A stretch of DNA of 64,000 nt, taken from positions 156,674,001 to 156,738,000 of the forward strand of contig OX597817.1 of the NCBI GenBank assembly GCA_951406725.2. The letters are read 5' to 3'. Positions 15,001-64,000 of the stretch are shown piece after piece. Numbering within the stretch: the stretch's first letter is position 1; each line of letters begins with the position of its first letter. Made by a program: the position numbers. The DNA comes from Octopus vulgaris (Eukaryota).

Positions 15001-18000
15001 CAGCAGACATTGTATCCTTAATGATCACAAATTAACAGTCTAACCAGTGTTTTTATAACCCATGTTTAACTGTTTTCCTTATAGGGAATTAACCCTGCTA
15101 TCAGTGAATGTGTTAATTATTGTTATAATTTTGGGGATTTTTCACCCACATCTTAACCATTTTTTAAACTTGTATTAACAATATTCTCTGGTGAATTATA
15201 AACCATTTTCAGGGGTTCTGTGTTGTTTCCCCTCATTTTACTTTGTCATTTTTCAACCCTTTTTTTTCCTCTCTTTCATCATTGTAACAAACCTCCAAGA
15301 ACTATTGTAAATTCTAGGTCAGCAAAAAAAAGGCTACCATGGTTTTTTTTTTTTTTTGTTTTTGTAGTTTATTTTTTATATCATCACCCAATTCCCCTTT
15401 GTCCCCCTTTATTTTCATCATTGACAGTCAAACAACTCTCTTCTACTGAACCATTCTATTGTATTCATTTTATTATTTTCAGAGCTTGTTAGCCATAGAA
15501 CTACTGAACTTGCACAAGCAAGAGACCGACTTTCTGAAGAAATGGAGAGTAACCAACACACGCCATCAGCGACGGGTGTGTAGACTTTGTGAACCTTGTC
15601 AACAGCATGTTTAACAAAGTATAATCTCTTTCAAAAAAGTTAATAATAATAATGATAATAATAATAATAATATTATGCATGCCATTGGTCAACTAATTTT
15701 TTTTTTTTTTTTTGACTCTGCTTGTTTCAATGGTCTGAGAAATTGACTGTTTTGTAAGTAGTAAAGTTGAATGTAATATCAGTCTAGTTGCTAGTTTTCA
15801 AGGCAAAGGACAGTTCTACTAGATCAGCTGATATGGAACTTGCCAAAAGCCTCCAGATGACCACCCCAGTGGGTAACACTGGTCTTGATTTTGGTGACAT
15901 AGCTGACCTCTAAAATATTGTATATCATTCATTTTTTAAGAAAAAAAAAAATTATTCCCTTCCACCTTCTCTTTTTTATTTTTTTTTTCACACTTCGAAA
16001 TCTTTAGTAAATACTTAGGAAAATTTTCCTAGTGATTTTTGGAATTTTCTGTTTGTATTGAGTTTCTTCATCAGATTGACTTTTTTGAAATTGGATTTCA
16101 TTAATGTGATAATTCAAGCTATATTTCAACCGTTATTGATAATGTGTCAGTGTATGTATGCGTATGACTCTATCTATTCATATATATATATATATATATA
16201 TATATATATATATATAAATATATGTATATATATAATATGGACCGTACATATACATTTGTATATGTTTCTTGATACAGTGTATAATTTAAATTCTAGATCT
16301 TTTGGATTAGTTTGAGTGTGTGTATGTATGTGACTGAAGACTATTTCCTGTCATTCAAGCTAGTCTACTTCTACCTCATAGTAAAGATGGCTGTTCACCA
16401 ACTCCAGTGTTCAAACTCATTCAAGGAAACAGATTTCACATCACTGTACCATACTGCAAACTTTCAATTTTCGCATTTCGATAATTCAGCAAATTTGTAA
16501 CACTCTGGAAGGGTGGGGAGGAAACAGAACAATGCAGAAGGTTGATAGAAAACCAGCCCTTCTTCTCATCTAAAAAAATTTAAATATGGCTATATGTTTT
16601 TCGGCAGAGAACAGTGAAGTATTCTTCACATGCTGGTCTTTGGTCATCAATGTTTTCTTTTCATCTTGGCCTGTGACTTTTCAACATTTTTTATCTTTTT
16701 TTTTTTTACTTCCTGCACTAAAATCTTTATGGATTTCTTGTCTTTATTATTTGTTTGTCTATCTTTTTTATATATATTAAAAATAAGATTGATTAAATTG
16801 GGTTGGAAAGGTGTTTGTAAATGTAAACATTGAGATTACAGCAGTTGGGTGGGTTACATTTGGAGAGGAATTTAGTGGGTTTCATCTGTGAGTTTTTTTC
16901 TTTCAAAAAAATAAAAAGGCATTATCTGGGTGTTTTATTGTACAAATTTTAATGTTTTCTTCAATCTGACAGACTGATTATATCAGTAACAAACTCTCTT
17001 GCTATTCATGTTTCTTATTATGCAGATTTCATACTTTGGAGTATATTGGCAAAAATCTTCCTAAACTTATAAAGCTTTCCATCTTAATCTTTAAAACTAA
17101 TCCAGATTTTGCTCTGATTTTTTCCACAATATGTTCGTGTCATGAATATATTTTCAAGTTTTAATTTCCAAACTCATTTCCACTTTATAATTTTGTTAAG
17201 GGCCATCTCAAAGTAAGATTTTTAACTAATCCAAGTCAAGGAGTTTTTTCCCTTTATATTTATTTTTGTATGTGTGTGTATGCGTGGCCAAAAAAATTTA
17301 TGTAGTGTTGCAGAAAGTTCTACGTCGGAGCATATAGACACTGTATCAAGATGGTCAGCAATGCCAGTTTACTTGGGCTTCTTGATTACCACTTGATCTT
17401 CCAAAACTCAAGTTTTTCAAGTTGGGCCTCCTTAAGCAACTGAGCAAAAGCATGTGTGTGTATGTATGTATATGTACATATATATATGTGTGTCTGTATA
17501 TCTATATGTATATATATGTGTAAATTTTTCAAAGTATAACAATATAGTATTATAATTTTTCAATATATTTCAAATATTTGAGGTTCATCTTTTTTCTGAT
17601 TTTCTTTTTTCTTTTCTTCTCTTTAGTTTTTATTCAATTTTAGCAATTTTTCTTCTATATCTCTGCCTCCTTCACTTCACTTCTATACTCCATTTTTATT
17701 CTTGCAGTATCACAAGACTTGATTCAAAATTTCTTTTTTTCTTTTTCCAAATTTTGTTAATATTTTGGTTTGTATGATACTGTTTGTATATGATATACTT
17801 TCAAAAATTAGGGTTATCAGCTAGAGACCAAAATATACCTACTATACAAATTTACACTAGAAATTTGCAAATTTATTTATATGTATATATATATATATAT
17901 ATTAGCTATTATTATTATCATCAAACTCTTATTATTATTGTTGTTAGGGAAGTGGTCTGACGGAATCATTAGAACTTTGACAAAATGCCTTGTGGTATTT

Positions 18001-63000: not shown

Positions 63001-64000
63001 GGATTTTTTTTTTTTTTTTTACCTACCTTTAATTGTAAAACAAACAAAAACAAAACTATTGACAAAAAAACAAACCCTTGATAGATGATGAGAGTGAGGG
63101 TAAAACAAGATCAGTCGCTTCTATTATTCAAATGTTTGAGCAAACATCTGACACTGCTTTGCAAAGTTCAGCTACAGACATTGTTCGTGAAGTCCAGAAA
63201 TCAGCACAAGCAACGTTACGCAAAGAATCTCAGGAATTCGTAAAGCAAGACTCTTCTGAGTGGGTTGTCATTGACGACAGCGATCTTGATGGCTTTGATG
63301 CAGAAAAGGTGCCATCAGCCAATGGTACTTATGTTGAAACAGAAGATTCTGCTCCAAAGGTAGAAGAATGGGTAAAAGTCTCTGCTGTCAAAGAGAAATT
63401 TGAGGACAAAATTAAGAATGGCTCCATGTCTGAAAAAACTATTATACGTGAAGCCACCAAAGTTCACACAAGCACTTTAGCAAAACATAAATCTTCAGAG
63501 AAAGCTGATGATGTTGATCAACCTTACGGTGTCCCGGAACCGCCCGACGCCCACTTTAAGACTCCCTCAGATGATGAAAATCTTGAATTTTCTGAGAAAT
63601 TGAAAATGTTTACTGGTAAACATGCCCAAAATTATTATGTCACAACTCAACCTGATGAGTTATTAAGCTCTGATGAAGAAACACCAGACACTACCTCGAA
63701 AGGAAGTGAAAGGTCATACCAAACTGCATCTGAAACGAGTGAAATCCGATCTGAAACTGTAAAAGTGTCTTCTACAGGAGAGCAAAAAAGTGAAGTCGTT
63801 GAAGAACGACGCGAAAGCACTTCATCACTGATTGCCAAGTTTGAGGAAGCTACAACTCGTGAAAAGCCGTCAAAGAAAGAGGCCATGTCATTTGACAAGG
63901 ATAGCAAAGAAACAGTACAAAAAGAAGTGACAAAATCTTGGAAAACTGATTCTTCTCAAAGTGCAGTCCAGGAGATAAAGGAAAGTCACGTATTCCAAGA

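What the first reader, a model, noticed from the sequence alone, without database searches (positions are those of the whole stretch)
15483..64000. Modular cassette system: one gene with several giant exons and mini-exons, all symmetric phase 1 (putative multi-giant-exon ankyrin)
Seen: every exon I can delimit (15483-15575, 21917-27025, 36628-48656, 55470-55640, 60161-60223, 63085->end) starts two bases before a full codon, and those with a visible 3' end finish G|GT. Any subset can therefore be joined in frame, and the first two giant exons alone could add roughly 5,700 aa. Established: vertebrate ankyrin-G/B each have one giant neuronal exon, Drosophila Ank2 has L and XL giant exons, and C. 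elegans UNC-44 has a giant isoform. Inference: this is the giant-exon region of a cephalopod ankyrin with at least three large cassettes, each carrying a different lineage-specific repeat, allowing combinatorial control of scaffold length and chemistry. The ANK, ZU5 and death domains are not in the window.
Basis: partly seen in the sequence, partly recalled or inferred. Interest (0 to 1): 0.85.

Follow-up and report, generated by a model that had tools for sequence, protein, structure and literature searches.

The report
Phase-1 giant-exon region, gene unidentified
A run of same-strand exons, two of them 5 kb and 12 kb long and packed with in-frame tandem repeats, appears to encode part of one very large, acidic, unfolded protein, but nothing here shows that the protein is an ankyrin.

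Summary
Five of the six proposed exons are open, have AG/GT borders and are in phase 1 at every visible end. All five visible 3' ends read G|GT. The two giant ORFs (1713 and 3345 codons) far exceed chance: the longest ORF in 100 shuffles was 207 codons.

One claim fails as assembled. Exon 36628-48656 is 12,029 nt, which is not a multiple of three. Three small indels within about 630 bp (about 38123-38755) break its frame, so read-through stops at 38184-38186.

The exon products are acidic and lie on the disordered side of a charge-hydropathy test. They have no credible Pfam or PDB relative. They carry three in-frame arrays: 30 bp x39, 624 bp x13 and 48 bp x18.

Ankyrin identity is untested. 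No ANK, ZU5 or death-domain signal lies in the window. The published composition hallmark of ankyrin long exons is not met by the two giant exons. Two tandem long exons are already described for 8 of 23 ankyrin loci, including a mollusc (PMC5135030).

Verdict: a plausible modular giant-exon gene region of known kind, with gene identity open.

The parts
15483..15575 (+). Candidate mini-exon, 93 nt, phase 1 at both ends; 30 full codons, hydrophilic
   Evidence: (acceptor 95th percentile, donor 99.6th). Plausible but not proven without transcripts.
21917..27025 (+). Giant exon 1, 5109 nt, phase 1 at both ends, 1702 full codons with no stop
   Evidence: ORF 21901-27042. The frame opens 16 nt before the acceptor and closes 17 nt after the donor. 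These are the best-scoring sites at both ends. Product pI 5.12, GRAVY -0.94. No Pfam family.
23315..24493 (+). In-frame tandem array, 30 bp (10 aa) x 39.3 copies, inside giant exon 1
   Evidence: 84% matches, no indels; family D1; translation.
36628..48656 (+).
   Evidence: Acceptor 36628 is at the 99th percentile and donor 48656 at the 98th. Each end is in phase 1 relative to its own local frame only.
38123..38755 (+). Stretch holding the three frame-breaking indels: 1 nt missing in a T run at about 38123-38127, 1 extra nt at about 38325, 2 extra nt at about 38752-38755
   Evidence: Alignment of 12 repeat units; sequence. Read-through from 36628 stops at 38184-38186.
37504..45643 (+). Tandem array of 624-bp (208-aa) units, 13 copies: 12 at 96-100% identity over a 300-nt register, the 13th at about 70%
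   Evidence: (modal k-mer spacing 624). One unit has an in-frame 18-nt deletion. dN/dS is 0.65 among 9 intact units.
37242..45823 (+). 28 copies of a roughly 15-residue conserved motif, two per 208-aa unit plus degenerate flanking copies
   Evidence: 28 in giant exon 2, 0 elsewhere in six frames. The motif is fully kept in the 13th unit, which is only 58% identical overall.
46903..47769 (+). In-frame tandem array, 48 bp (16 aa, rich in His, Asp and Cys) x 18.3 copies
   Evidence: (D19).
46442..48160 (+). A segment of about 105 aa duplicated on either side of the 16-aa array (about 46442-46831 and 47771-48160), 69.5% identical
   Evidence: BLASTP E 5e-54.
55470..55640 (+). Candidate mini-exon, 171 nt, phase 1 at both ends; acidic and Gln-rich
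   Evidence: An alternative in-phase acceptor at 55431 would add a hydrophobic stretch.
60161..60223 (+). Candidate mini-exon, 63 nt, phase 1 at both ends; Thr-rich
   Evidence: (acceptor 99.9th percentile).
63085..64000 (+). Exon open to the window end (304 codons visible), phase 1 at the 5' end, weak acceptor
   Evidence: (acceptor 47th percentile). Composition Ser+Glu 27.6%. One acidic W-x-x-I motif at 63252-63293.

Best explanation
These are consecutive exons of one large + strand gene, covering the repeat-rich, intrinsically disordered middle or tail of a very big protein. The visible part is about 6,000 residues. The gene's identity is not established.

Shown:
- There are two huge open frames with splice-like borders, all in phase 1.
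- All exon products are acidic and hydrophilic.
- Three tandem arrays have periods that are whole numbers of codons (10, 208 and 16).

Inferred:
- Each exon starts two bases before a codon and ends on a G one base into a codon. Any exon can therefore be skipped or included without a frameshift or a junction stop.
- The arrays can grow and shrink by unequal recombination without breaking the frame.
- Sequence constraint between units is weak (dN/dS about 0.65), apart from a 15-residue motif kept in 28 copies. The segment would therefore act through length, charge and many copies of a short docking motif, not through a fold.
- The three indels that break giant exon 2 are most likely assembly errors or very recent changes in the first units of the array. 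The affected unit is otherwise as close to the consensus as the intact ones.
For: ORFs of 1713 and 3345 codons against a maximum of 207 in 100 shuffles.

Donors rank at the 97th percentile or above and five of six acceptors at the 88th or above. The best candidate site at 4 of 5 giant-ORF ends is in phase 1.

The frames open 16 and 25 nt before the acceptors. They close 17 and 128 nt after the donors, and the 128-nt extension is hydrophobic junk.

All 7 exon pieces have pI 4.1-5.4 and GRAVY -0.8 to -1.3, and all lie on the disordered side of the charge-hydropathy boundary. Sliding windows agree: 56 of 65, 17 of 17, 120 of 128 and 9 of 9.

Arrays. Motif: 28 copies in giant exon 2 and 0 elsewhere.

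dN 0.0275, dS 0.0424 over 36 pairs of 9 units. Three of the 12 units were left out: two frameshifted and one 606-nt unit.

The frameshifted unit 38264-38890 is 98.6% identical to the consensus, against 95.0-99.0% for the others.

AlphaFold2 on the 208-aa unit with a 12-row alignment gave mean pLDDT 47.4 and no secondary-structure element. This is weak evidence, because the alignment is shallow.
Against: There is no transcript evidence.

Giant exon 2 is not open end to end as assembled. The three indels are clustered, whereas the other roughly 6.9 kb of the array has no frame-breaking indel. That is odd for random assembly error.

The acceptor at 63085 is weak.

The giant exon 1 frame begins with ATG right after the upstream stop, and giant exon 2 has a Met 17 codons into its frame. 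Stand-alone genes are therefore not excluded.

The mini-exons exceed a minus-strand control only modestly.

The splice matrix uses recalled general metazoan frequencies, not this organism's own.
Confidence: 0.6

Rival explanations
1. It is specifically the post-death-domain giant-exon region of a giant ankyrin, with the ANK, ZU5-ZU5-UPA and death-domain exons upstream of the window.
For: Protostome ankyrins carry their long exon or exons downstream of the death domain. 8 of 23 loci with long exons have two tandem long exons, including Aplysia, where the two are not homologous. Long exons average 8103 +/- 4850 bp, and some hold lineage-specific repeat arrays (PMC5135030, passages).

Here there are two non-homologous long exons of 5.1 and 12 kb. 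The last exon fits the published composition bias (27.6% / 58.6%). It also has one acidic W-x-x-I motif of the LC3-interacting type reported for giant ankyrins (review PMC7615515, passages).

Residues 49-113 of giant exon 2 are predicted as charged beta-hairpins with block-mean pLDDT up to 82. From memory these resemble the C-terminal regulatory segment of vertebrate ankyrins. That is a lead, not a test.
Against: No ankyrin-defining domain lies in the window.

The two exon pieces searched against the PDB gave 0 matches at E <= 10. The 36-residue motif segment gave 3 weak non-ankyrin hits.

The two giant exons miss the composition hallmark: 18.3% / 45.0% and 14.3% / 44.7%, against about 25% / >55%.

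Their 208-aa unit is longer than the 36-228 bp repeat sizes reported for ankyrin long exons.

LC3-interacting motifs are short and common. Other giant scaffold genes also have several long repeat-bearing exons.
Confidence: 0.3
2. The large ORFs are separate intronless genes, or retrogene-like units, that merely lie on the same strand. The shared phase would be a coincidence.
For: The giant exon 1 frame opens with ATG. Giant exon 2 has a Met at residue 17 of its frame. There is no homology between the exons.
Against: The top-scoring acceptor and donor candidates sit within 16-25 nt of where the frames open. Each also lies just before the point where the frame closes or its product turns hydrophobic. 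All are in phase 1. By my own estimate, chance agreement of four independent ends with a fifth is roughly (1/3)^4.

Three hydrophilic mini-exons lie between them in the same phase, with no such candidate on the minus strand.
Confidence: 0.1
3. The frame breaks in giant exon 2 are real, and the exon is in fact two exons. One repeat unit, roughly 37894-38759, has become an intron bounded by a phase-1 donor and the phase-1 acceptor-like site at 38760. Alternatively, transcripts that include the exon end at the stop at 38184-38186.
For: All three indels fall within about 630 bp, while the remaining roughly 6.9 kb of the array has none.

Phase-1 donor-like sites exist at 36702, 36750, 37023 (score 6.44) and 37893. 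A phase-1 acceptor-like site lies at 38760 (score 4.31), right after the third indel, which lengthens its pyrimidine run.

Pieces 36628-37893 and 38760-48656 would each be a multiple of three. This follows from the coordinates.
Against: The same donor-like and acceptor-like strings recur in most units. They are a property of the repeat, not of this place.

The supposedly intronic unit is as close to the consensus (98.6%) as the coding units. That argues against long relaxation.

One indel is a homopolymer-length change, typical of sequencing error.
Confidence: 0.15

Closest known systems
Drosophila Ank2 L and XL exons (giant ankyrin isoforms)
   Same: Two tandem, non-homologous long exons. One is filled with a long array of highly conserved in-frame repeats (93 x 76 aa in XL) that has been proposed to act as a molecular spacer (PMC5135030, passages). 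Here the array is 13 x 208 aa in a 12-kb exon.
   Different: Membership in the ankyrin gene is not shown here. The repeat unit is longer. Ser+Glu content is lower, with Asp, Pro, Val and Gln prominent.
Aplysia californica ankyrin with two long exons (mollusc)
   Same: A mollusc locus with two non-homologous long exons downstream of the death domain, as stated in PMC5135030 (passages).
   Different: No sequence comparison was possible. The cephalopod origin of this window is itself unverified.
Other giant repeat-bearing exons in large scaffold genes, for example nesprin/ANC-1 repeats, the Ki-67 repeat exon and the AHNAK exon (all recalled, from no call)
   Same: Very long single exons made of near-identical in-frame tandem units.
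   Different: Those families are defined by other domains that cannot be looked for here. The resemblance is recalled only.

Membership tests
Giant ankyrin (ANK2/ANK3, Ank2, UNC-44 type) | N-terminal array of 24 ANK repeats in the same gene | not testable with these tools
   It would lie upstream of the window. Inside the window, Pfam found no ANK on 8 exon pieces. A crude scan with recalled patterns over six frames found none.
Giant ankyrin (ANK2/ANK3, Ank2, UNC-44 type) | ZU5-ZU5-UPA cassette and death domain upstream of the long exon (protostome order) | not testable with these tools
   Neither is in the window. The flanking scaffold is not available.
Giant ankyrin (ANK2/ANK3, Ank2, UNC-44 type) | One or two exons longer than 3 kb downstream of UPA | tested here: inconclusive
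   Exons of 5109 and 12,029 nt exist. Their position relative to a UPA domain is unknown, and the second exon is frame-broken.
Giant ankyrin (ANK2/ANK3, Ank2, UNC-44 type) | [quoted passage not shown] | tested here: not met
   Giant exon 1: 18.3% / 45.0%. Giant exon 2: 14.3% / 44.7%. Only the last partial exon fits, at 27.6% / 58.6%.
Giant ankyrin (ANK2/ANK3, Ank2, UNC-44 type) | Sequence similarity to any solved ankyrin segment | tested here: not met
   phmmer against PDB chains gave 0 hits at E <= 10 for two exon pieces. For the W-x-x-I segment it gave 3 non-ankyrin hits with E 0.51-2.1. Long exons are reported to lack conserved sequence, so this weighs little.
Symmetric phase-1 cassette exons | Both borders in phase 1, length a multiple of three, open frame, AG/GT borders | tested here: met
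   Met for 4 of the 5 exons with both ends visible. Not met for 36628-48656 as assembled.
Symmetric phase-1 cassette exons | Observed alternative inclusion and skipping | not testable with these tools
   No transcript data are available.
Tandem-repeat spacer exon (Ank2-XL-like in design) | A long array of near-identical units within one exon, with a unit length that is a whole number of codons | tested here: met
   624 bp = 208 codons, 13 copies, 12 of them at 96-100% identity. Also 30 bp x 39.3 and 48 bp x 18.3.

The most novel reading that the evidence does not exclude
The locus encodes a lineage-specific giant disordered protein that is not an ankyrin. Its length would be tuned at the RNA level. 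Every 624-bp unit carries phase-1 donor-like and acceptor-like sites, so splicing inside the array could set the number of copies of a 15-residue docking motif (28 copies in the genome). One unit would already have become an intron, which would explain the clustered frame breaks.
Probability: 0.08. Interest if true: 0.6.

Novelty: new member of a known kind. Interest (0 to 1): 0.35.

Why it matters
If the upstream exons prove to be ankyrin, this would add a further mollusc locus with two or more non-homologous long exons. It would supply a 208-aa repeat unit larger than those tabulated for ankyrins, which is useful for asking how giant isoforms set axonal scaffold dimensions.

If the gene is something else, the locus is still a clear case of a protein region of more than 6,000 residues built from in-frame arrays and phase-matched exons.

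In both cases the practical point is a warning for annotation. The second giant exon cannot be translated through in this assembly, so automatic gene models here will be truncated or split.

Tried and rejected
- **Pfam on 8 exon pieces:** no credible family. PF02296 scored 27.5 bits for the whole protein, against a cut-off of 25.4, on a 1000-residue stretch of repeats. No single stretch passed, so I read it as weak matches summed over repeat copies.
- **First Pfam attempt:** failed because one coordinate was out of frame. I corrected it.
- **PDB sequence search:** I searched the last exon, the first 518 residues of giant exon 2 and a 36-residue W-x-x-I segment. There was no ankyrin among the results, and nothing below E 0.5.
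- **ESM Atlas:** I did not pursue it.
- **AlphaFold2:** I ran it on the 208-aa unit and on residues 1-291 of giant exon 2.
- **Foldseek:** the second model against the PDB gave 0 matches at E <= 0.001, as expected for a low-confidence model.
- **Rfam on the whole window:** 0 matches.
- **Scan with recalled patterns for ANK, ZU5 and death-domain signatures:** one hit, in a frame full of stops, which I dismissed.
- **Pfam on 10 intronic or antisense ORFs:** only sub-threshold matches.
- **Homology between exons:** none except within giant exon 2.
- **Paper searches:** 'ankyrin + cephalopod + giant exon' and 'ankyrin + octopus + giant isoform' each returned 0 papers.

Not done:
- I did not use the prokaryote genome collection, because it cannot hold this gene.
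- The supplements of PMC5135030 (exon sizes, repeat table, ankyrin sequences including mollusc entries) were closed and may bear directly on the comparison.
- I built and searched no joined spliced model. All searches were exon by exon.
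Full report
**What is in the sequence**

The window has no N. On the + strand there are two enormous open frames, 21901-27042 (1713 codons) and 38747-48784 (3345 codons). 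Shorter frames lie at 36603-38186 and 38280-38783, and another at 63063 runs off the window end. In 100 shuffles that kept local base composition, the longest ORF averaged 138.5 codons and never exceeded 207. The large frames are therefore not chance.

**Borders and phase**

- All six 5' ends follow an AG and lie two bases before a full codon of the local frame.
- All five visible 3' ends read G|GT, one base into a codon.
- Four exons (93, 5109, 171 and 63 nt) are multiples of three and have no stop.
- The last exon is open for 304 codons to the window end.

I scored the sites with a simple matrix built from recalled general metazoan frequencies. The five donors rank at the 97th-99.6th percentile of 3640 GT sites. 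Five acceptors rank at the 88th-99.9th percentile of 3375 AG sites. The acceptor at 63085 is weak (47th percentile).

I then listed every AG and GT near the ends of the large frames. The frames open 16 and 25 nt before the acceptors and close 17 and 128 nt after the donors. The 128-nt run-on past 48656 encodes a hydrophobic string unlike the exon.

Every exon ends in G, so any junction codon begins with G and cannot be a stop. I built and searched no joined model. All searches were exon by exon.

**The mini-exons**

The - strand holds 11 candidates, one of them in phase 1/1.

With relaxed thresholds outside the big frames, 7 of 15 + strand candidates are hydrophilic. The other two lie at 59149-59487 and overlap ORFs resembling one at 1003-1377, so they are probably repeat-derived. 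On the - strand 0 of 4 candidates are hydrophilic.

The mini-exons are therefore plausible, but the sequence alone does not prove them.

**The failure: giant exon 2**

The stretch 36628-48656 is 12,029 nt (mod 3 = 2), and its phase-1 reading has 65 stops. I aligned twelve 624-bp repeat units and read the sequence directly. This shows three small indels:
- one base missing from a T run at about 38123-38127;
- one extra base at about 38325;
- two extra bases at about 38752-38755.

Read-through from 36628 ends at the stop at 38184-38186. The remaining roughly 6.9 kb of the array has no frame-breaking indel, only one in-frame 18-nt deletion.

The frameshifted unit 38264-38890 is 98.6% identical to the consensus, within the range of the intact units (95.0-99.0%). 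This points to assembly error or very recent change.

An alternative exists. Phase-1 donor-like sites lie at 36702, 36750, 37023 and 37893, and a phase-1 acceptor-like site lies at 38760. These would allow an in-frame bypass. However, the same strings recur in most units, so this is only a possibility.

**What the exons encode**

All seven exon pieces are acidic (pI 4.09-5.42) and hydrophilic (GRAVY -0.82 to -1.31). All lie on the disordered side of the charge-hydropathy boundary, both overall and in 202 of 219 sliding windows.

Giant exon 1 carries 39.3 copies of a 30-bp unit at 23315-24493. Giant exon 2 carries 13 copies of a 624-bp unit, and 18.3 copies of a 48-bp unit at 46903-47769. A segment of about 105 residues is duplicated on either side of the 48-bp array (69.5% identity). 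There is no homology between giant exon 1, giant exon 2 and the last exon.

I compared nine intact 624-bp units. Three of the twelve were left out: two frameshifted and one short. Variable sites are spread evenly over the codon positions (19, 15, 19), and dN/dS is 0.65. Constraint on the residues is therefore weak.

A motif of about 15 residues is an exception. It occurs 28 times in giant exon 2 and nowhere else in six frames. It is fully kept in the 13th unit, which is otherwise only 58% identical.

AlphaFold2 gave mean pLDDT 47.4 and no secondary-structure element for the unit, using a shallow 12-row alignment. For residues 1-291 of giant exon 2 it gave 42.6 overall. Residues 49-113, however, are predicted as charged beta-hairpins with block-mean pLDDT up to 82. 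Foldseek against the PDB gave nothing at E <= 0.001.

**Is it an ankyrin?**

Nothing tested here says so.
- Pfam found no credible family on 8 exon pieces.
- PDB sequence searches found no ankyrin.
- A crude scan with recalled patterns found no ANK, ZU5 or death-domain signature.
- The upstream 15 kb shows only repeat-like ORFs.

The paper on bilaterian giant ankyrins (PMC5135030; I read passages through the find mode) states several relevant points:
- Long exons lie after the death domain in protostomes.
- Repeat arrays occur in a subset of long exons, with units of 36-228 bp.
- Long-exon sequence is not conserved.
- The most conserved feature is composition: Ser+Glu about 25%, and six residues together above 55%.

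Tested here, giant exon 1 gives 18.3% / 45.0% and giant exon 2 gives 14.3% / 44.7%. Only the last exon fits, at 27.6% / 58.6%.

Two leads remain in favour. The last exon has an acidic W-x-x-I motif, of the kind reported as a strong LC3/GABARAP-binding motif in giant ankyrins (review PMC7615515, passages). The hairpin segment resembles, from my memory only, the C-terminal regulatory segment of vertebrate ankyrins. Both are weak.

I put ankyrin at about 0.3.

**How it most likely works**

Shown:
- phase-matched exons;
- in-frame arrays;
- acidic, disordered composition;
- a conserved multi-copy motif.

Inferred:
- Exons can be included or skipped freely.
- Arrays change length by unequal recombination without frameshift.
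- The product acts as a long flexible spacer that presents many copies of a short docking motif.

Rival readings are independent intronless genes (about 0.1) and a genuinely split or truncating second exon (about 0.15).

**Novelty**

Several long, non-homologous, repeat-bearing exons in one gene are already described for ankyrins, including a mollusc. This is at most a new member of a known kind. Two searches of the paper library returned no paper: ankyrin + cephalopod + giant exon and ankyrin + octopus + giant isoform.

**What stayed unchecked**

- The supplements of PMC5135030, which hold exon tables and sequences, were closed.
- No eukaryotic genome or transcript collection was available.

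Noticed in passing
window 2683-2883 (+), 12216-12431 (-), 33098-33311 (+): Three copies of a dispersed element, 98-99% identical over 201-214 nt, one of them inverted. This looks like a recently active short transposable element in the introns (I1 and I2; matching ORF translations).
   Followed up: partly
window 27369-27543, 30546-30720, 31954-32128, 60525-60699: A second dispersed 175-nt repeat family with four copies at 64-100% identity (D20).
   Followed up: no
window 29125-29436 (-): An ORF with a sub-threshold match to the DDE_3 transposase domain (18.6 bits against a cut-off of 28.6, E 0.0017). It is probably a decayed DNA-transposon remnant in the intron between the giant exons.
   Followed up: partly
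window 11377-11778 (+): A 133-codon ORF whose tail, from memory, resembles the C-terminal end of non-LTR retrotransposon reverse-transcriptase ORFs. Pfam found nothing.
   Followed up: partly
window 19588-19962, 50904-51287, 55694-56133: Long (TA)n/(AT)n microsatellites of about 195-232 copies. One lies 54 nt downstream of the mini-exon 55470-55640.
   Followed up: no
window 36774-36968 (+): Residues 49-113 of giant exon 2 are predicted as four long charged beta-strands forming hairpins, with block-mean pLDDT up to 82 even without an alignment. This is the only part of the region that looks structured.
   Followed up: partly
window 36650-36680 and 48590-48650 (+): Strongly basic Lys/Arg clusters sit at both ends of giant exon 2 (translations). 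They could be nuclear-localisation-like or polyanion-binding patches.
   Followed up: no
window 23684-24268 (-), 36596-37165 (-), 46898-47872 (-): Long antisense open frames (189-324 codons) lie opposite the giant exons, mostly over the repeat arrays. They are most likely by-products of the repeats and codon bias. One gives a sub-threshold Pentapeptide_4 match.
   Followed up: partly
window about 60130-60145 and 63055-63070 (+): The acceptors at 60161 and 63085 are both preceded, 20-30 nt upstream, by the same short branch-point-like string followed by an A run (output). This may explain how the purine-rich 63085 acceptor could still work.
   Followed up: no
window 21901-21903 (+): The giant exon 1 frame begins with ATG directly after the upstream stop, 16 nt before the proposed acceptor. 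A stand-alone start cannot be excluded from sequence.
   Followed up: no
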